In this document: in pieces, positions 16,643 through 61,663 of the stretch
Layout of the letters: the number at the start of each line of letters is the position of its first letter
Numbering within the stretch: position 1 is the first letter of the stretch
Source: Acidobacteriota bacterium
GTDB taxonomy: Bacteria; Acidobacteriota; UBA6911; RPQK01; JAJDTT01
Length of the DNA: 64,000 bases
Assembly (NCBI GenBank): GCA_965209055.1
Contig: OZ242374.1
Span: forward strand, 160,001-224,000
Direction: 5' to 3'
The notes under the pieces: model-generated
What the model saw: the letters and a program-made list of their open reading frames with translations, nothing else
The model's database searches: none
What the model was told of the DNA's origin: nothing
Position numbers and translations under genes: made by a program

Positions 16643-16706
16643 TGTAGAGGGGGACTGCCGTCGCCCCTAACCCCCCCGGTTCGGCGACAGGAAACTCGCC
16701 GCTCCT
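16643..16706. repeat. Composite REP unit
   Basis: GTAGAGGGGGACTGCCGTCGCCCCTA plus CGGCGACAGGAAACTCGCCGCTCC; same layout as 25942-25999. Confidence 0.75.
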
Positions 16707-25941: not shown

Positions 25942-25999
25942 GGGAGTGTTGCCGTCCCCCCGACCCCCCCTAATCGGCGACAGGAAAGTCGCCGCTCCT
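25942..25999. repeat. Composite REP unit
   Basis: TGCCGTCCCCCC plus CGGCGACAGGAAAGTCGCCGCTCC. Confidence 0.75.
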
Positions 26000-48219: not shown

Positions 48220-48375
48220 GCTTCCCCACCGGCCCATGTCCGGCGAAATGCCGGTAGAAAAAGGATGGGAGCGGCGGTTTCCTAACCGCCGAACTGGAGC
48301 GGCGATTTCCAATCGCCGAACTCCTGACTGACAAACTTGGCGACAAAGATTGGGCGATTGGAAATCGCCCCTCCT
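48220..48375 (+). repeat. 81-bp direct repeat copy 2 followed by a REP array
   Basis: GGAGCGGCGGTTTCCTAACCGCCG, GGAGCGGCGATTTCCAATCGCCG and GGGCGATTGGAAATCGCCCCTCC. Confidence 0.88.
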
Positions 48376-56015: not shown

Positions 56016-57116
56016 ATGGCTATTCGACCCAAACGACCCGGTTCATTCCGCATCCGCCTGGGGGTCGCCCTCGCGTTGCTGGCGGGCTCCTTGATGTTCG
56101 GTCTTGTGAGTACCGGTCCGCCCGCCACGAACGACCCTCATACTGCGGTCGTTCCCGCCCGGGTCCAGCCCGCCTTTCCGCAACCGATCCGGGGAAAGGC
56201 GGTCCGCTCCAAGGTGATCGAGTTGATGGGGATGGATGCGATCCCCCCGAGGGAGATCCGGTATTCAACCGGGGAGACGACGCGTACCGAAGACGGACTC
56301 CTGAGAACGCCCGTGACCTTCGTCAATTCCTTGGGAGAGACGGTGCCCGGGATCCTCCTCGTTCCCGCCGGGGCAAGTCCCGGATCGCTGGCGGGAGTCG
56401 TCTGCATGCCGGGAACCAGCGGCGACGCCGAACGCTTGACCGAGGAGCGATTCCACCGGGACCAGCCGGACCAGGGACCGCTTCGCGGTTGGGCGCGGGA
56501 GCTGTCGAGACGGGGCTTCGCCACCCTCTCCTTCACCCTGAAGGGGACCGTTGCCCGGCGCCGCAACCTGGACGAGTGGGAGACCGAAGCCAAGCTCCTG
56601 GCCCCCTACGGTCGCCCCCAGATGGGGATCCTGGCGGAAGAAGCCCTGCGGGCGGCCCGGGTCCTGGGTGCGCAAGAACAGGTGGACCAAGCCCGAGTCG
56701 GACTGACCGGATTCTCGCTGGGGTCGTACGCCTCCTGGTGGGCCATGGCGTGCGATCCTTCGATTCGGACCGCGGCCATACTCTGCGGGGGATTGGGCAG
56801 TCTGGCGCGGGACATCCACGAGGGACAGCCGGACCGGCACAGTTCCTGCCACTACATACCGGGACTGCTCCGCCATTTCGACCATCCCGAGATCGTGGCG
56901 GACTGCGTCGCGCCCCGCCCGCTGATGGTGCTGGCTCCGCTGCGGGACCCGGACATGGCGGCGTCCGGAGTGGATCAGCTGGTTGACCTGGTTTCGCCGG
57001 TCTACCGGAAGGCGGGCCGGTCTCATCTGTTCCAGGTCCATCGCCCCGACGACGGCCACGTCTTCCGGGTGGAATACTTCAACTGGATGGCGAAGTGGTT
57101 TGAAGAGCAGCTCTAG
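56016..57116 (+). CDS. Alpha/beta hydrolase (dienelactone hydrolase-like)
   Basis: GFSLG nucleophile, YIPGLLR.FD, APRPL, terminal GH.F. Confidence 0.8.
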   Translation: MAIRPKRPGSFRIRLGVALALLAGSLMFGLVSTGPPATNDPHTAVVPARVQPAFPQPIRGKAVRSKVIELMGMDAIPPREIRYSTGETTRTEDGLLRTPVTFVNSLGETVPGILLVPAGASPGSLAGVVCMPGTSGDAERLTEERFHRDQPDQGPLRGWARELSRRGFATLSFTLKGTVARRRNLDEWETEAKLLAPYGRPQMGILAEEALRAARVLGAQEQVDQARVGLTGFSLGSYASWWAMACDPSIRTAAILCGGLGSLARDIHEGQPDRHSSCHYIPGLLRHFDHPEIVADCVAPRPLMVLAPLRDPDMAASGVDQLVDLVSPVYRKAGRSHLFQVHRPDDGHVFRVEYFNWMAKWFEEQL

Positions 57117-57144
57117 GGAGATCCGAACGGCGGCAAAACCGGGG

Positions 57145-58254
57145 CTGGGAATCCTGGACGAGTATCCCCGGGTGAGGCTGTGCCGCCTGCCCACGCCCTT
57201 GGAGGCGATGCCCAATCTGGGTCGTGCGCTGGTCGGGGCGCGGGTCTACGTCAAGCGGGACGATTGCACCGATCTGGCGTTCGGCGGCAACAAGGTGCGC
57301 CAACTGGAGTTCTACCTGGGCGAGGCGAGGCAACAGGGCGCCGACACGATCCTCATCACCGGCGCCGTCCAGTCCAACTTCGTCCGTCTCGCCGCCGCGG
57401 CCGCCCGCAAATCGGGCATGGACTGCCACATTCAACTGGAGGAGAGGGTCGCCAGGGACGATTCTCTCTATAGGAACTCCGGAAACGTTCTGCTGGACCG
57501 GATCCTGGGGGCGACTCTCTATTCCTATCCCGAGGGCGAAGACGAGGAAGGGGCGGACCGGCGGGTGGCGGAGATCGCCGAGGAGCTGAAGGGGGAGGGA
57601 AGACGTCCTTACATTATCCCCCTCGGTCCGGGGCACCCGCCTCTGGGCGCCCTGGGATATGTCGTGGCGGCGGAGGAGCTGCTGGAGCAGATTGCATCGG
57701 GGCAGCTCTCCATCGATGAGGTGGTGGTGCCCTCCGGGAGCGGCCACACGCATGGCGGGTTGTTGTTCGGGTTGAGAGCGCTGGGTTCGCAGGTGCGGGT
57801 GACCGGGGTTTGCGTTCGCCGGAACGCCGGGCCGCAAAAGGAGCGGATCCGGGACCGCTGCGGCGAGATTGCCGAGTTGCTGGAGACGGCGAACCCGGTG
57901 GCCGACGAGGACATCCGTATTGTCGACGACTTCCTGGCGCCGGGGTACGGGCGGTTGAATCCGCCGACGCTGGAGGCGATCCGGATGGCCGGCGGCCTGG
58001 AGGGGCTGATCCTGGATCCGGTCTACACGGGGAAGACGATGGCGGGGCTGATCCATCGGGCTCGGAATTCCGACCCAGGGCGATCGTTCGTGCTGATGCA
58101 CACCGGCGGGACGCCGGCGATCTTCGCTTATGGTGCGGAACTGACCGCCGAATTGGAGCGCCGGTTTCCAACTGCCGATTCCGATTCGGAGCGGCGGTTT
58201 CCAACCGCCGATTCTTGCGGGGACAAGGATGTCCCCGCGCCTATGGGGGACTGA
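57145..58254 (+). CDS. D-cysteine desulfhydrase / ACC deaminase family PLP enzyme (start uncertain)
   Basis: KRDD, FGGNKVRQLEF, SGSGHT, LDPVYTGK, HTGG. Confidence 0.88.
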   Translation: MGILDEYPRVRLCRLPTPLEAMPNLGRALVGARVYVKRDDCTDLAFGGNKVRQLEFYLGEARQQGADTILITGAVQSNFVRLAAAAARKSGMDCHIQLEERVARDDSLYRNSGNVLLDRILGATLYSYPEGEDEEGADRRVAEIAEELKGEGRRPYIIPLGPGHPPLGALGYVVAAEELLEQIASGQLSIDEVVVPSGSGHTHGGLLFGLRALGSQVRVTGVCVRRNAGPQKERIRDRCGEIAELLETANPVADEDIRIVDDFLAPGYGRLNPPTLEAIRMAGGLEGLILDPVYTGKTMAGLIHRARNSDPGRSFVLMHTGGTPAIFAYGAELTAELERRFPTADSDSERRFPTADSCGDKDVPAPMGD

Positions 58255-58377
58255 CAGTCCCCCCTTTTGAGAAAAAGGGGGCAATTTCAATCGCCCGGTC
58301 TTCGTCGCCAAGTTTGTCACAACGGAGTGCGGTGGTAGGAAAACCGCCGCTCCACCGGCGACAGGAAAGTCGCCGCT
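58155..58377. repeat. Large REP array, continued at 59818-59878 beyond the IS110
   Basis: At least six palindromes; the 58-bp block 58208-58265 recurs identically at 59819-59876. Confidence 0.85.
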
Positions 58378-58391
58378 TGTCTGTTTAAATA

Positions 58392-58555
58392 AGTCCGCCC
58401 GGGCCGCTCATGAGCGGCCCGGGCGGCGGTGGCTGGACCGTGTCGCCGCTGACCGTTAGATCCGGATGTGGAGTAAGGTCGGCCACCGTCTTTCCCGATG
58501 TCCTGAATGGATACGAGGGCATCAAGGCCCGAATGACAAGCATAGGAGACCGGAA
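58392..58555 (+). ncRNA. Predicted IS110 bridge RNA (ends approximate)
   Basis: 5' hairpin at 58395-58426; target guides GTCGCCGCT (58442-50) and GGAG (58470-73); donor guides ATGGATAC (58507-14) and GACAAG (58535-40). Confidence 0.8.
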
Positions 58556-58557
58556 AG

Positions 58558-59505
58558 ATGAAACAGCATACCGTAGGCATCGACATCTCGAAAGCGCACC
58601 TGGACGCCCACCGGCTGGCCGACGGCCGATCCGCCCGGTTCGACAATGACCCGGCTGGCTTCCGGGCGCTGATCGATTGGATCGGAACTCCGGTCGAGTG
58701 CGTCGCCTACGAGGCCACCGGCCCCTATCACCGGAACCTCGAGGAAGCGCTGTGGAAAGCGAAGCTGCCGCTGTCGAGAGTGAATCCCTGGCAGGCCCGG
58801 TGTTTTGCTCAGGCGACCGGGAGCCGCGCGAAGACCGACACCGTAGACGCCCGGATGCTGGCCCAGATGGGGGCCAGCCTGGATCCGCGCCGGACCCCGG
58901 CGCCGTCCAAGACGCAACGCCGGCTCCAGGAACTGCAGGGGTGCCGGGACGCGCTGATGCGCCAGCGCACGGCCGCGCTGAACCGCCGCGCCCATTTGCG
59001 CGATCCCCTGCCCAAGCGGCAGAACCAGACCCAGATCAACCTGTTCGAGCGCCAGGCGAAGGCCATTGACCGAAAAATGCAGCAACTGATCGCGGCCGAT
59101 CCGGAGCGGGCGCGCAAGTTGGAGATCCTGACCTCCATTCCCGGGATCGCGGCCACCACCGCCGCGGGTCTACTGGCCGAGATGCCGGAGCTGGGCACCC
59201 TGAGCGGTAAGGCCGTCGCCAGTCTGGCCGGGTTGGCCGCCGTTCCTCGCGAGTCGGGGGCTTGGCAGGGACGGGCCTTCATCCGGGGCGGACGAGCGCG
59301 GGCGCGACGGCTCCTGTACATGCCGGCGGTGGCCGCCCTGCGCTGGAACCGCGACCTGGCCGAGGTCTATGGGAGACTGACCGGGCGTGGCAAGCCCGGC
59401 AAGGTGGCCCTGGTCGCCGTCATGCGCAAGCTCATCGTCCTAGCCAACACCCTGGTGAGTCAGGACCGCACCTGGTTGCCCGAAGCGCCCCGTGTGGTCT
59501 GCTGA
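58558..59505 (+). CDS. IS110 family DEDD recombinase/transposase
   Basis: GIDISK, YEATG and KTDTVDA give DEDD; also SIPGIA, PRESG serine and AVMRKL. Confidence 0.95.
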   Translation: MKQHTVGIDISKAHLDAHRLADGRSARFDNDPAGFRALIDWIGTPVECVAYEATGPYHRNLEEALWKAKLPLSRVNPWQARCFAQATGSRAKTDTVDARMLAQMGASLDPRRTPAPSKTQRRLQELQGCRDALMRQRTAALNRRAHLRDPLPKRQNQTQINLFERQAKAIDRKMQQLIAADPERARKLEILTSIPGIAATTAAGLLAEMPELGTLSGKAVASLAGLAAVPRESGAWQGRAFIRGGRARARRLLYMPAVAALRWNRDLAEVYGRLTGRGKPGKVALVAVMRKLIVLANTLVSQDRTWLPEAPRVVC

Positions 59506-59887
59506 AGCGACGGAGCGAGATGAGGAGGAAAGGGGGCGTGACGGGTCCCCCGAGGAATGATCTGTAGAACTTCCGGTCAGGCCTGGCCGGAAGCTTGCTT
59601 ACGGCCTTGAAAGCTCTTCACGCCCTGGGGAGCGTCGGGTCACCCGAAGGGCCGCAGCGAAGCGGAGGAGCCGTAGGCTTGACCCGAGGCTCCCCAGGGC
59701 GTACCCGCGCCCAGTGGACCGGACAGATCACGTGCCAACAGGAAACCGGACACCTCACTGACTAACGACCCGGGATGGAATCACCGATGAGAACCCACCC
59801 CTTGCAACATGGATACTCCCGATTCTTGCGGGGACAAGGATGTCCCCGCGCCTATGGGGGACTGACAGTCCCCCCTCCGAGGACTGT

Positions 59888-61663
59888 ATGAACCAACTCA
59901 GCGAGCACCTGTTCCGGGTTGACGACACCTGCAGCGTCTACGGCGTCCGGGCCGGCGGAAAGACGCTCTTGATCGATTGCGGGACCGACCTGCGGACCCG
60001 CGACGTGGGAGCAGTCGACCGGGTCCTGCTCACCCATTTTCACCGCGACCAGTGTTCCGGAATCCGGCACTGGCAGGAGCAGGGCGCCGGCGTCTTCATC
60101 CCCGGCGCCGAGCGGCGCTACCTGGAGGAGGCCGACCTGCAGCGGGCGGCCTACTACACTTACGACAACTACACCGCCTACTACCCGGACTTCGGCCCCT
60201 TGCAGGACGTCCGGGGCGCCAGGATCGCCCGCGACTACGAGACCATCGACTGGCAGGGAATCCGCTTCGAGGTCGTCCCGCTGCCCGGACACACCTTCGG
60301 CTCAACGGGATACCTGTTCGAAATCGACGGCCGCCGCGTCCTGGCCTGCGGCGACCTGATGGCGGCGCCGGGCCGCCTCGGCGACTACTACTGGCTGCAG
60401 TGGAGCTACATGGACTTCCAGGGGCACGTCAATCAGCTCGAAAGCCTGGCCCACGCCGCCGATTTGGAGTGGGACCTCATGCTGCCGGGGCACGGAGCGC
60501 CCTTCTCCCGGGAGGAGGCCCGCATCGGCGAACTGAGCGAACGGCTCGCCCGGCTCCACGGCATGTTCTTCGACCAGCCGTACACCCCCTTCCAGGTGGA
60601 GTTCCGCCGCCTGTCGCCCCACGTCTACGAGGTCAACTCCATGGCCAACTCGTATGTCGTCAAGGACGACGCCGGTCACGCTCTTCTCATCGACTGCGGC
60701 TACGTCTCCGGGGCGCCCATCACCGCCAATCCGCACCGCTACATCGACCACCTGACGCCGCGCCTGCGAAGTGAGCTGGGTGTCGAGACGGTGGAATATT
60801 TCCTGCCGACCCATTTCCACGACGACCATCTGGCCGGCTACCCCATGCTCCGGGCGCGTTACGGCGCCAAAGTGGCGGCCGCGCCGGAACTGCGGGACCT
60901 GCTCGAACACCCGGAGCGGTACGACATGCCCTGCATGGTTCCCGACGGGATGCGGGTCGACCGGGTCGTGGCCCGGGGGGAATCTTTCCACTGGCGCGGG
61001 ATCGACTTCCGGATCGAGCAGTTCCCGGGACAGACCTGGTACGACCACCACATCACCTTCCAGGTCGACGGGCGGCGTTTCCTGGCCATCGGCGATGCGA
61101 TATCGGGGCTCCCGTTCCGGGAGAAGCGGGACTACATCCATTCCTTCATCCCGAAGAATCGAACGCCGCTATCGGCATACGGGTCCATACCGCGCAAGAT
61201 CGCGGAGCGGCGTCCGGACGTGATTCTGACCGGGCATGGGGGTGGAGTGGCGTTCGAACAGGCACGGATCGATCTCTGGACCCGGTGGATGGACCGCTGG
61301 CAATCGCTGTTCACCGGTATCGTCGAGGCGCCCCACCCCGACATGGCCATGGATCCCCACTGGGTCGAGTTCCGGCCCTACAAGGTCCGGATCCGCCCCG
61401 GCGACGCCGTGGACTTTCGCCTCTACGTCAAGAATCACGCAGACGAAGAAAAGAGCTGCCGGGTCCGGTTCCGCTCAGTGGATGGCGTTTCCATCGATCC
61501 CTTGGAGCGGGACCTGGTCCTGGCGGCGGGAGAGACCAAGGAGACCGCCGTCCGGGTCCGCTTTCCGCGGGAGTTCTCGACTCATTCCCTGCCGATCCTG
61601 GCCGACGTGGAATGGGACGGACAGAGACTGGGCGAGGTGGCCGAGGCCATCGCCTACTGGTGA
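59888..61663 (+). CDS. Tandem metallo-beta-lactamase-fold hydrolase with C-terminal Ig-like domain
   Basis: THFHRDQ...PGHT...GD...PGHG and a second THFHDDH...GD...TGHG. Confidence 0.85.
   Translation: MNQLSEHLFRVDDTCSVYGVRAGGKTLLIDCGTDLRTRDVGAVDRVLLTHFHRDQCSGIRHWQEQGAGVFIPGAERRYLEEADLQRAAYYTYDNYTAYYPDFGPLQDVRGARIARDYETIDWQGIRFEVVPLPGHTFGSTGYLFEIDGRRVLACGDLMAAPGRLGDYYWLQWSYMDFQGHVNQLESLAHAADLEWDLMLPGHGAPFSREEARIGELSERLARLHGMFFDQPYTPFQVEFRRLSPHVYEVNSMANSYVVKDDAGHALLIDCGYVSGAPITANPHRYIDHLTPRLRSELGVETVEYFLPTHFHDDHLAGYPMLRARYGAKVAAAPELRDLLEHPERYDMPCMVPDGMRVDRVVARGESFHWRGIDFRIEQFPGQTWYDHHITFQVDGRRFLAIGDAISGLPFREKRDYIHSFIPKNRTPLSAYGSIPRKIAERRPDVILTGHGGGVAFEQARIDLWTRWMDRWQSLFTGIVEAPHPDMAMDPHWVEFRPYKVRIRPGDAVDFRLYVKNHADEEKSCRVRFRSVDGVSIDPLERDLVLAAGETKETAVRVRFPREFSTHSLPILADVEWDGQRLGEVAEAIAYW

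What the first reader, a model, noticed from the sequence alone, without database searches (positions are those of the whole stretch)
58376..59817. REP-targeting IS110 with a fully readable bridge RNA
Seen: the element is bounded by CT on both sides. The empty target reconstructs as GTCGCCG-CT-CC, a REP end, and the circle junction as ATGGATA-CT-TGTC. The 180-bp leader has a 32-bp perfect palindrome (58395-58426). A stem (GGCGGTGGCTGGACC / GGTCGGCCACCGTC) then encloses GTCGCCGCT (left target + core) and GGAG (reverse complement of CTCC). A second loop holds ATGGATAC (left donor) and GACAAG (reverse complement of CTTGTC). Circularisation would join TTGCAA (59802-07) 17 bp upstream of TTAAAT (58385-90). 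Known: this is the target-loop/donor-loop and junction-promoter architecture of IS621-type bridge recombinases. Inference: an intact, compact (315 aa) programmable recombinase aimed at this genome's GGAG-REP family. An exact empty target lies at 25988-25998 and one-mismatch sites at 16695-16705 and 48296-48306.
Basis: partly seen in the sequence, partly recalled or inferred. Interest (0 to 1): 0.85.

Follow-up and report, generated by a model that had tools for sequence, protein, structure and literature searches.

The report
REP-targeting IS110 element with bridge RNA
This is an intact mobile element of the IS110 family that carries its own guide RNA, matched to the small repeated hairpins it inserts into; it is a clean but ordinary example of a system first described in 2024.

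Summary
Window 58378-59817 is a 1,440-bp IS110-group insertion sequence with CT on both sides. Its 315-aa recombinase matches the IS621 and ISCro4 transposases (E about 1e-36) and keeps all five catalytic residues.

The 180-nt left end folds into a 5' stem-loop, a target loop and a donor loop. Covariation supports this fold: 25 of 40 pairs show compensatory changes.

- **Copies:** the genome holds three, all inserted at GTCGCCG-CT-CC in the tail of a REP hairpin.
- **Target guide:** across 23 insertions in this and three related genomes, it occurs in five sequence classes. It equals the 7-nt left flank in 21 cases and differs by one base in 2.
- **Donor guide:** in 16 of 24 valid more distant relatives it changes together with the element's own right end.

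Bridge RNAs and REP targeting by IS110 elements are already published (IS621, ISPpu9, ISPpu10), so this is a new member of a known kind. Expression, circle formation and programmability were not shown here.

One thing is unexplained. At this locus the element lies inside a 1,611-bp gain flanked by a perfect 58-bp direct repeat, which sister genomes lack.

The parts
58357..58375 (+). REP hairpin that carries the left target: GGCGAC (58357-62), loop AGGAAA, GTCGCC (58369-74), then G. The left target GTCGCCG is 58369-58375.
   Evidence: Read. The same hairpin flanks all 3 genomic copies. 36 of the 62 exact 11-mer sites in the genome have the GGCGAC arm 4-8 nt upstream.
58376..58377 (+). Left copy of the CT core dinucleotide.
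   Evidence: It is identical at all 3 copies and in the relatives L017-L035.
58378..58557 (+). Left non-coding end (180 nt), which encodes the predicted bridge RNA. The right donor sequence TGTCTG is at 58378-83.
   Evidence: The covariance model R1 finds this leader only at the three IS copies in the genome.
58382..58390 (+). -10-like TTAAAT (58385-90), preceded by TG-n (58382-84), which reads as an extended -10.
   Evidence: Direct reading. It is conserved in the 17 short-left-end relatives. Function is inferred.
58395..58426 (+). 5' stem-loop of the bridge RNA (a 32-nt perfect palindrome).
   Evidence: (I4). In helix 1, 11 of 12 pairs carry compensatory changes across 13 sequences.
58425..58490 (+). 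Target-binding loop module: outer stem 58425-39 with 58477-90, left target guide GTCGCCGCT 58442-50, inner hairpin about 58453-67, right target guide GGAG 58470-73.
   Evidence: helices 2-4.
58501..58547 (+). Donor-binding loop module: outer stem TCCTG 58501-05 with TAGGA 58543-47, left donor guide ATGGATAC 58507-14, inner hairpin GGGC 58517-20 with GCCC 58527-30, right donor guide GACAAG 58535-40. The 3' stem overlaps the ribosome-binding site AGGAG (58544-48).
   Evidence: helices 5-7.
58558..59505 (+). Recombinase gene, 315 aa. It has a DEDD RuvC-like domain and a Tnp domain. The catalytic residues are D9, E52, D94, D97 and S233.
   Evidence: ORF. (PF01548 at 8.5e-22, PF02371 at 7.8e-19). 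(NF033542, 205 bits against a cut-off of 140). (alignment to IS621 and ISCro4). (IS621 residue numbers).
59506..59815 (+). Right non-coding end (310 nt). The left donor ATGGATA is at 59809-15.
   Evidence: It holds no donor match of 6 nt or more and only 6-7-nt target matches.
59620..59702 (.). Imperfect hairpin nested in the right end (23-nt arms, 96% complementary). This part of the right end varies between relatives.
   Evidence: I1; only chance-level miRNA-model matches. Element positions 1245-1370 are absent or unaligned in L017, L030 and L034. An 86% copy of 66 nt lies elsewhere in the genome.
59802..59807 (+). -35-like TTGCAA. It would lie 17 bp upstream of TTAAAT only in the circular form.
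   Evidence: Direct reading. It is conserved in all relatives whose right end was identified. Function is inferred.
59816..59817 (+). Right copy of the CT core, followed by the right target CC(C).
58208..58265 (+). First copy of a perfect 58-nt direct repeat (X). The second copy is at 59819-59876, directly after the element.
   Evidence: D1. No other full-length copy exists in the genome. Sister genomes carry a single copy at this locus.

Best explanation
Window 58378-59817 is an intact IS110-group insertion sequence, the IS621 type of 'bridge recombinase'.

**Proposed mechanism (inferred from IS621 unless marked as shown).** The element excises as a circle. The circle junction ATGGATA-CT-TGTC brings a -35-like box in the right end next to an extended -10 in the left end. 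This promoter drives a non-coding RNA of about 150-160 nt, starting near 58397.

The RNA folds into three parts:
- a 5' stem-loop;
- a donor-binding loop, in which AUGGAUAC and GACAAG pair with the element's own joined ends.

The DEDD/Ser recombinase, bound to this RNA, would then exchange strands at the CT core. The result is insertion of the element into the tail of REP hairpins of the form GGCGAC-AGGAAA-GTCGCC-GCTCC.

**Shown here:**
- the anatomy;
- three near-identical copies in the same target;
- conserved catalytic residues;
- stem covariation in the RNA;
- co-variation of both guides with their DNA partners in natural relatives.

**Inferred from IS621:** transcription, circle formation, RNA-guided strand exchange and reprogrammability.
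For: **Protein**
- PF01548 and PF02371 both match.
- NF033542 'IS110 family RNA-guided transposase' scores 205 bits against a cut-off of 140.
- The IS621 transposase 8wt6 matches at E 2.6e-36 and ISCro4 9t56 at E 1.8e-37, over residues 3-297.
- D9, E52, D94, D97 and S233-G234 align with IS621 D11, E60, D102, D105 and S241-G242.

**Copies**
- There are 3 in the genome, with identical ends and the target GTCGCCG|CT...CT|CCC.
- Copies 1 and 2 differ at 3 of 1442 nt and encode identical proteins.

**Target**
- 62 exact 11-mers occur against about 12.5 expected.
- 36 of these 62 lie in the REP hairpin.
- A strict pattern finds 266 REP hairpin units.

**RNA**
- The leader folds at z = -5.3.
- The consensus fold is a 5' stem-loop plus two stem-loops with internal loops.
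- On 13 sequences, 93.6% of cells are paired and 25 of 40 pairs carry compensatory changes. No shuffle of 500 reached this, and slid controls gave 28-46% paired.

**Target guide**
- There are five guide classes: GTCGCCG, ACCGCCG, ACCGACG, CACGCCG and GACGCCG.
- The guide equals the left flank 7/7 in 21 of 23 distinct insertions and 6/7 in the other 2.
- The right target guide matches at least 4 contiguous nt in 18 of 20 insertions.

**Donor guide**
- An 8-mer of the right end, anchored on the -35 box, is found in the leader in 17 of 25 loci. One of these, L065, is a low-complexity artefact.
- Controls gave 3 of 25 (ORF), 3 of 25 (reverse-complemented leader) and 7.4% of shuffles.
- At least 9 different donor 8-mers are involved.

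**Location of the guides**
- Donor and target matches lie in the left end, not the right end.
Against: - No direct evidence for the RNA, the circle or activity was obtained.
- The junction promoter is weak: TTGCAA and TTAAAT each match 4 of 6. By the criteria of the scan (9 of 12, A at position 2 of the second hexamer) it would not be called. The joined sequence itself was not scanned.
- The second core base is mismatched in the donor guide (G against T).
- The same base is mismatched in the target guide of two of the five classes, which read CG against CT.
- The right target guide of the window element matches only 4 nt.
- In 2 of 20 insertions (L030, L031) it matches only 2 nt.
- The right end (310 nt) is longer than the left end (180 nt). 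This is the opposite of the IS110-group tendency described in PMC11208160 (passage seen).
- No Rfam family matched.
- Relatives are kin, so the counts of insertions overstate the number of independent events. The independent units are the five guide classes and about nine donor variants.
Confidence: 0.9

Rival explanations
1. The element is a genuine IS110, but it is now a fixed and inactive resident. On this view the guide/flank matches record past insertions only.
For: Copy 3 is disrupted by a 1189-bp IS5-family insertion inside its target loop and carries two amino-acid changes. A solo right-end relic and a partial relative exist elsewhere in the genome.
Against: Copies 1 and 2 differ at 3 of 1442 nt, have intact and identical ORFs and keep all catalytic residues. 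Sister genomes lack the element at the orthologous locus (0 of 7), so the insertion post-dates the split of these species. Relatives reach at least 15 copies in one genome.
Confidence: 0.06
2. The target-like and donor-like segments in the leader are captured REP or end fragments without a guide function. On this view the recombinase recognises DNA directly, for example the REP hairpin.
For: REP-like sequence is abundant in this genome (266 strict units), so a REP fragment in a leader is not very improbable in itself. A target stem-loop is reported to contribute to specificity in ISPpu10 (abstract seen).
Against: The segments sit at fixed positions in internal loops of a structure that is conserved through compensatory changes. 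They change with the flank in five classes, including a non-REP target, ACCGACG. The donor segment tracks at least 9 different right ends. The homologous IS621 system works by RNA guides, by experiment (PMC11208160, passages).
Confidence: 0.03
3. The element is an IS1111-type element whose guide RNA (seekRNA) lies in the long right end.
For: The right end (310 nt) is longer than the left end (180 nt) and contains a strong hairpin. IS1111 elements have longer right ends (PMC11208160, passage).
Against: The right end holds no donor match of 6 nt or more and only 6-7-nt target matches. The left end holds the 9-nt target run and the 8-nt and 6-nt donor runs. The long part of the right end is variable and is absent in L017, L030 and L034. 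The best structural relatives are IS621 and ISCro4.
Confidence: 0.01

Closest known systems
IS621 (Escherichia coli) bridge recombinase and bridge RNA (PMC11208160, PMC11208158)
   Same: - The protein has the same two-domain architecture and the same five catalytic residues.
- The core is CT.
- The guides are a 9-nt left target guide and a 4-nt right target guide, read against an 11-nt target.
- The RNA is encoded in the left end and has a 5' stem-loop, a target loop and a donor loop.
- A promoter is split across the circle junction.
- The targets are REP sequences. The reference to Choi et al. 2003 was seen.
   Different: - The protein similarity is only at the family level (E about 1e-36).
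- The host is an Acidobacteriota-type genome with its own REP family.
- The right end is longer than the left end.
- The second core base of the donor guide is mismatched.
- No experimental data exist for this element.
ISCro4 transposase (PDB 9t56)
   Same: It is the best solved-structure match by sequence (E 1.8e-37, residues 3-297).
   Different: Only the depositor's molecule name was seen. Its RNA and its target were not examined here.
ISPpu9 and ISPpu10 of Pseudomonas putida (PMC12288879; bioRxiv 10.64898/2026.03.19.712850)
   Same: - They are IS110 elements inserted in REP or conserved intergenic hairpins.
- ISPpu10's target carries a stem-loop 5' of the paired region (abstract). Here the left target is itself the 3' arm of the REP stem-loop.
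- ISPpu9 carries extra RNA-coding sequence downstream of the transposase (abstract start). Here a variable hairpin sits in the right end.
   Different: The sequences were not compared. Whether the hairpin contributes to specificity here is untested.
IS1111 group / seekRNA elements
   Same: They share the DEDD recombinase family and RNA-guided targeting.
   Different: In IS1111 the guide RNA lies in the right end and there are long subterminal inverted repeats (PMC11208160, passage). Here the guides are in the left end, and only a 4-bp inverted repeat, AACA/TGTT, flanks the donor (read).

Membership tests
IS110 family, IS110 group (IS621-type bridge recombinase) | DEDD RuvC-like domain plus a C-terminal Tnp domain | tested here: met
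   PF01548 at 8.5e-22 and PF02371 at 7.8e-19. NF033542 at 205 bits against a cut-off of 140. IS621 8wt6 at E 2.6e-36.
IS110 family, IS110 group (IS621-type bridge recombinase) | Catalytic residues D11, E60, D102, D105 and S241 of IS621 | tested here: met
   D9, E52, D94, D97 and S233 (followed by G234) occupy the aligned positions. These were counted by hand on the phmmer alignment. The residue list comes from PMC11208158.
IS110 family, IS110 group (IS621-type bridge recombinase) | No terminal inverted repeats; a 2-nt core present at both junctions; site-specific insertion | tested here: met
   CT lies at both ends of all 3 copies, in the same 11-nt target. The same ends occur in 17 relatives.
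IS110 family, IS110 group (IS621-type bridge recombinase) | [quoted passage not shown] | tested here: met
   In one search, 93.6% of cells are paired, 25 of 40 pairs are compensatory and 0 of 500 shuffles are as high. That alignment was fitted to the model, which favours the structure.
IS110 family, IS110 group (IS621-type bridge recombinase) | The target-loop guides match the target and co-vary with it | tested here: met
   Of 23 insertions, 21 match 7/7 and 2 match 6/7, across five guide classes. The right guide matches at least 4 nt in 18 of 20.
IS110 family, IS110 group (IS621-type bridge recombinase) | The donor-loop guides match the element's joined ends and co-vary with them | tested here: met
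   In the window, 8 nt (ATGGATAC) and 6 nt (GACAAG) match. In relatives, 17 of 25 loci match (one is an artefact), against 3 of 25 in each of two controls.
IS110 family, IS110 group (IS621-type bridge recombinase) | A sigma-70 promoter reconstituted across the circle junction | tested here: inconclusive
   TTGCAA-17 bp-TTAAAT, each matching 4 of 6, with TG-n before the -10 (read). It is conserved in close relatives. More distant relatives show TTGACT-17-TATGTT (read). No circle and no transcript were observed.
IS110 family, IS110 group (IS621-type bridge recombinase) | Left end longer than right end (a group tendency, not a strict criterion) | tested here: not met
   The left end is 180 nt and the right end 310 nt. 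The excess is a variable region that some relatives lack.
IS110 family, IS110 group (IS621-type bridge recombinase) | RNA-dependent, reprogrammable recombination | not testable with these tools
   This needs plasmid recombination assays. Only natural guide variants were seen.
REP (repetitive extragenic palindromic) elements, as the target | A short imperfect palindrome in high copy number, often in arrays | tested here: met
   266 strict hairpin units were found, 135 of the ACCGCC type and 36 of the GTCGCC type. Tandem arrays are visible. Extragenic location was not tested systematically.

The most novel reading that the evidence does not exclude
This is the most novel reading that the evidence leaves open.

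This IS110 lineage follows its hosts' REP repertoire through one- to three-base changes in its guide. Five guide classes occur within one genus, and two classes can share one genome.

At the window locus the element did not arrive by a simple core-only insertion. It arrived as part of a 1,611-bp unit that carries its own REP landing pad. That unit consists of the Y repeat, the IS and one extra base, and it is bounded by a perfect 58-bp duplication.

This would mean that flanking DNA was mobilised together with the element. One possible route is a larger circle that integrated by homology or by half-matched recombination.
Probability: 0.12. Interest if true: 0.55.

Novelty: new member of a known kind. 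Interest (0 to 1): 0.3.

Why it matters
The element adds a well-annotated natural bridge-recombinase system from a phylum far from the enterobacterial models.

It also comes with a ready-made natural 'reprogramming series'. Elements about 88% identical carry five different target guides, and each sits in its matching target. This gives a matched set of guide/target pairs for testing specificity rules. Those rules include the role of the target hairpin and the tolerance of a mismatched second core base.

For genome annotation, it shows that the 180-nt 'leader' should be annotated as a non-coding RNA gene. It also shows that REP tails of the GTCGCCGCTCC type are insertion hotspots in this genome.

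It does not change what is known about how such elements work.

Tried and rejected
**Rfam.** Only chance-level matches were found (best mir-939, 29 bits against a gathering score of 84, on the right-end hairpin). No bridge-RNA family was hit, so homology to the IS621 RNA could not be tested this way.

**IS621 DNA.** I built model R1 from this family instead.
- In the own genome it found only the three IS copies.
- Among 23 non-training relatives it found a leader directly upstream of the ORF at E < 0.01 in 5 (L043, L044, L046, L047, L048).
- The other 18 were not detected. L051 scored only E 0.27.

**Public reads.** All four runs laid (X1, X5, X7, X19) are Logan contigs.
- No joint corresponding to the circle junction or to an empty site was listed.
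- Contigs drop rare variants, so this says nothing either way.
- RNA-library contigs (X19) cover parts of the leader of a relative, but contigs cannot show a start or expression.

**Unconstrained longest-common-word test.** This compared the leader with the right end. The donor 8-10-mers were the top word in 10 of the 22 loci that were scored. Words of that length are not significant on their own (shuffle mean about 7.6). I replaced it with the -35-anchored test.
- L040 is missed by that test, because its -35 box overlaps the donor word.
- L065 is a low-complexity artefact.
- L052 and L060 were skipped for short flanks.

**Promoter scan of the integrated element.** It gave 0 promoter-like sites. 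The joined junction was not scanned.

**Long direct repeats around other Y-family repeats.** None were found apart from tandem Y arrays, so the 58-bp duplication is not a general property of Y.

**Supplementary files.** The orthologue tables of PMC11208160 might already list this element or its relatives.

**Alignment A2.** It contained minus-strand matches to the palindrome and second modules, and was not used for counting. A3 was used instead.

**Dropped rows.** L038 and L039 gave rows identical to L034 and L035 and were dropped as duplicates.
Full report
**What is there**

- CT lies at 58376-77 and again at 59816-17.
- Between them is a 1,440-bp element that begins TGTCTGTTTAAAT and ends CTTGCAACATGGATA.
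- The only long ORF in a sensible position is 58558-59505 (+), 315 aa.

The protein evidence is consistent.
- It carries PF01548 (DEDD_Tnp_IS110, 8.5e-22) and PF02371 (7.8e-19).
- It passes NCBIfam NF033542 'IS110 family RNA-guided transposase' at 205 bits against a cut-off of 140.
- Its only relatives with solved structures are the ISCro4 transposase (9t56, E 1.8e-37) and the IS621 transposase (8wt6, E 2.6e-36), aligned over residues 3-297.
- On that alignment D9, E52, D94, D97 and S233-G234 stand at the positions of IS621 D11, E60, D102, D105 and S241-G242.
- PMC11208158 shows these IS621 residues to be the composite active site and to be essential (passages seen).

**Copies and target**

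The genome in which the window lies (6.08 Mb, one contig) holds three copies.
- The first is the window copy.
- The second is at G000:4550362-4551803.
- The third is at G000:1170365-1172999 on the minus strand.

All three have the same ends. All three have the same flanks: GGCGACA(G/A)GAA(A/C)GTCGCCG before the left CT, and CCC after the right CT.

Copies 1 and 2 differ at 3 of 1442 positions and encode the same protein. Copy 3 has 6 differences and 2 amino-acid changes. It also carries a 1189-bp IS5-family element with a TTAG duplication, inserted inside the predicted target loop.

The reconstructed empty target GTCGCCGCTCC occurs 62 times in the genome, against about 12.5 expected from base composition.
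- 36 of the 62 sites have the complementary arm GGCGAC 4-8 nt upstream.
- A strict pattern finds 266 hairpin units of this REP family. The commonest variant is ACCGCC (135 units) and the second is GTCGCC (36 units).

So the left target is the 3' arm of a REP stem-loop plus one G, and the core and right target lie in the GCTCC tail. In the window itself there are 12 sites with at most one mismatch, against 4.47 expected.

**The leader RNA**

The 170 nt before the start codon fold at -86.5 kcal/mol, z = -5.3. I aligned 12 leaders: the window, eight close relatives, and three relatives at 43-57% protein identity. The consensus fold has three parts:
- a 5' stem-loop, which is the 32-nt palindrome 58395-58426;
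- a long stem enclosing an internal loop with a small inner hairpin (58425-58490);
- a second stem with an internal loop and an inner hairpin (58501-58547).

I then built covariance model R1 from that alignment and made a model-fitted alignment of 13 sequences, A3. The counts on A3 are:
- 93.6% of cells are paired.
- 25 of 40 pairs carry changes on both sides.
- No shuffle of 500 reaches any of the five measures.
- Sliding the partners by 1-3 columns gives 28-46% paired.

One caveat applies: the alignment was fitted to the structure and the sequences are kin.

R1 finds nothing else in the genome apart from the three IS copies. It detects a leader directly upstream of the recombinase gene in 5 of 23 non-training relatives at E < 0.01.

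**Guides against DNA: target side**

In the first internal loop the 5' side reads GTCGCCGCT (58442-50). This is identical to the left flank plus core. The 3' side reads GGAG (58470-73), the reverse complement of CTCC. These are the same lengths as the nine-base left guide and the four-base right guide of IS621 (passage).

The decisive evidence comes from relatives. One search returned 19 loci from three records titled Acidobacteriota MAGs, with 81-88% protein identity. One search added one more locus from a same-genus genome (L037). Their leaders are nearly identical except in this loop. There, five guide classes occur, each with the matching left flank:

| Guide class | Insertions | Match to left flank |
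|---|---|---|
| GTCGCCG | 5 | 4 at 7/7, 1 at 6/7 |
| ACCGCCG | 12 | 11 at 7/7, 1 at 6/7 |
| ACCGACG | 3 | all 7/7; the target is a different repeat, not the REP |
| CACGCCG | 2 | both 7/7 |
| GACGCCG | 1 | 7/7 |

In total, 21 of 23 insertions match 7/7 and 2 of 23 match 6/7.

The right guide matches at least four contiguous bases from the core in 18 of 20 insertions, and up to 8 in L037. In L030 and L031 it matches only two.

Two guide classes can share one genome.

The second core base of the left guide is U in three classes and G in two. It is therefore not always paired.

**Guides against DNA: donor side**

The second internal loop reads ATGGATAC (58507-14), which equals the last seven bases of the element plus the C of the core. 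It also reads GACAAG (58535-40), the reverse complement of CT plus the first four bases, TGTC. Among the close relatives both the loop and the ends are invariant, so they give no test.

Among 29 more distant loci in the same phylum (29-57% identity) the right ends differ. The word in the corresponding leader position differs with them. The words seen are ACGGATGC, ACAGTCGC, ACAGTTGC, ACAGATGC, ACAGTATC, ACCGTATC, ACGGTATC and TGACAACC. By eye, ACAGTACC and ACACCATC also appear.

A constrained test took 8-mers lying 0-10 nt after a -35-like box in the right end and asked whether they occur in the 140 nt before the ORF.
- It found such a word in 17 of 25 loci. One of these, L065, is an artefact.
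- The ORF control gave 3 of 25.
- The reverse-complemented leader control gave 3 of 25.
- 7.4% of shuffled leaders contained such a word.

In the window element, the left end holds the 9-nt target run and the 8-nt and 6-nt donor runs. The right end holds no donor word of 6 nt or more. This argues against an IS1111-type arrangement, even though the right end is the longer one.

**Promoter**

In a circle that keeps one CT, TTGCAA (59802-07) lies 17 bp upstream of TTAAAT (58385-90). I counted this by hand.
- Each hexamer matches the consensus in 4 of 6 positions.
- TG-n precedes the -10, so it reads as an extended -10.
- Both hexamers are conserved in the close relatives.
- More distant relatives show TTGACT-17-TATGTT across their junctions (read). 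This resembles the conserved junction promoter of PMC11208160.
- In the integrated state no promoter-like site is called.

This part remains an inference.

**Most likely mechanism**

By homology with IS621, the element excises as a circle, and the junction promoter then transcribes the leader. The RNA binds the recombinase. One loop pairs with both strands of the REP tail around CT, and the other pairs with the circle junction around CT. Ser233, together with the DEDD site, exchanges the strands.

The anatomy, the target specificity and the co-variation are shown here. The chemistry and the RNA dependence are inferred.

**Comparison with the known**

- REP targeting by IS110 elements is in print for IS621 (Choi et al. 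2003, reference seen).
- It is also in print for ISPpu9 (PMC12288879, abstract start).
- A target stem-loop is reported as a second specificity determinant for ISPpu10 (abstract).
- Natural concordance between guides and targets was the founding observation of PMC11208160.

The element therefore passes every membership test that could be run, with one exception: the left end is not longer than the right end, which is a group tendency rather than a strict criterion. It is a new member of a known kind.

Its modest added value is the genus-level series of five natural guide variants, each in its matching target.

**What remains odd**

The 58 nt directly after the element (59819-59876) repeat perfectly at 58208-58265. 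They occur full-length nowhere else in the genome.

Between the first copy and the element lies a 110-nt member (Y) of a repeat family with about 52 copies. Y supplies the REP target.

I examined the orthologous intergenic region in seven sister genomes.
- Five have a single X-like copy.
- Two have a partial one.
- None has Y or the element.

So this locus gained 1,611 bp with a 58-bp duplication, which core-only IS110 insertion does not explain. Other Y copies lack such flanking repeats. I could not check the X-Y junction in reads, so an assembly artefact is not excluded.

Noticed in passing
window 58208-58265 and 59819-59876: A perfect 58-nt direct repeat brackets a 110-nt Y repeat plus the IS110 element. 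Five of 7 sister genomes have one X-like copy at this locus, 2 have a partial one, and none has Y or the IS. The mechanism of this 1,611-bp gain is unexplained.
   Followed up: partly
G000:C1:1171727-1172915 (inside IS110 copy 3; not in the window): A 1189-bp IS5-family element sits inside the target-binding loop of copy 3. Its ends read GGAAGGTCTGA... and it made a TTAG duplication. It has 9 identical copies genome-wide and at least 15 further copies at about 93% identity.
   Followed up: partly
window 58266-58375: Y belongs to a dispersed repeat family, sometimes in tandem arrays, with about 52 copies of at least 55 nt. Each unit is the hairpin GGGCGATTTCCAATCGCCC, a spacer and a REP unit. 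The nearest copy, at G000:2952857-2952944 (97.7%), carries an empty GTCGCCGCTCC target.
   Followed up: partly
window 59620-59702: An 83-nt imperfect hairpin is nested in the right end. Element positions 1245-1370 are absent or unaligned in L017, L030 and L034. A 66-nt copy at 86% identity lies at G000:2368165-2368230. It may be a small mobile palindrome or a passenger RNA.
   Followed up: partly
L020:1374-1479, L037:2894-3069 (minus strand), and L035: Relatives with a long left end (elements of 1.8-1.87 kb) carry a second, degenerate bridge-RNA-like module (R1 scores of 44-47 bits) about 300 nt upstream of the functional one. There the outer left terminus lies about 650 nt from the intact RNA.
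   Followed up: partly
G000:C1:1111403-1111592: A solo right-end relic of a related IS110 ends in CTTGCAACATGGATACT|CCC. It lies directly after a REP unit, with the rest of the element missing.
   Followed up: no
G000:C1:2084976-2085542: A partial IS110-family ORF matches residues 118-310 at 46% identity. It looks like a second, decayed family member.
   Followed up: no
window 58148-58254: The upstream ORF (56983-58254) reads through two reverse-oriented REP units and part of X. This gives it a repeated ERRFPTADS tail. In several sister genomes the corresponding REP loop reads TTTCTAGCC, which contains TAG. REP variation may therefore alter this gene's C-terminus; I did not check the reading frame.
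   Followed up: no
window 58356-58387 and 58395-58436: Two sites look like intrinsic terminators. One is the REP hairpin followed by the T-rich start of the element, on the + strand. The other is the 5' palindrome followed by TTATTTAA, on the - strand. They could insulate the element from outside or antisense transcription.
   Followed up: no
window 58100-60100 in runs X1, X5, X7, X19: In run X1 the word depth of the element interior (73) is about six times that of the unique flanks (11-13), although the assembly holds three copies. The tool warns that depth sums over organisms, so no copy number is claimed. Runs labelled marine, coral-reef and sponge metagenomes hold half or more of the stretch's words.
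   Followed up: no
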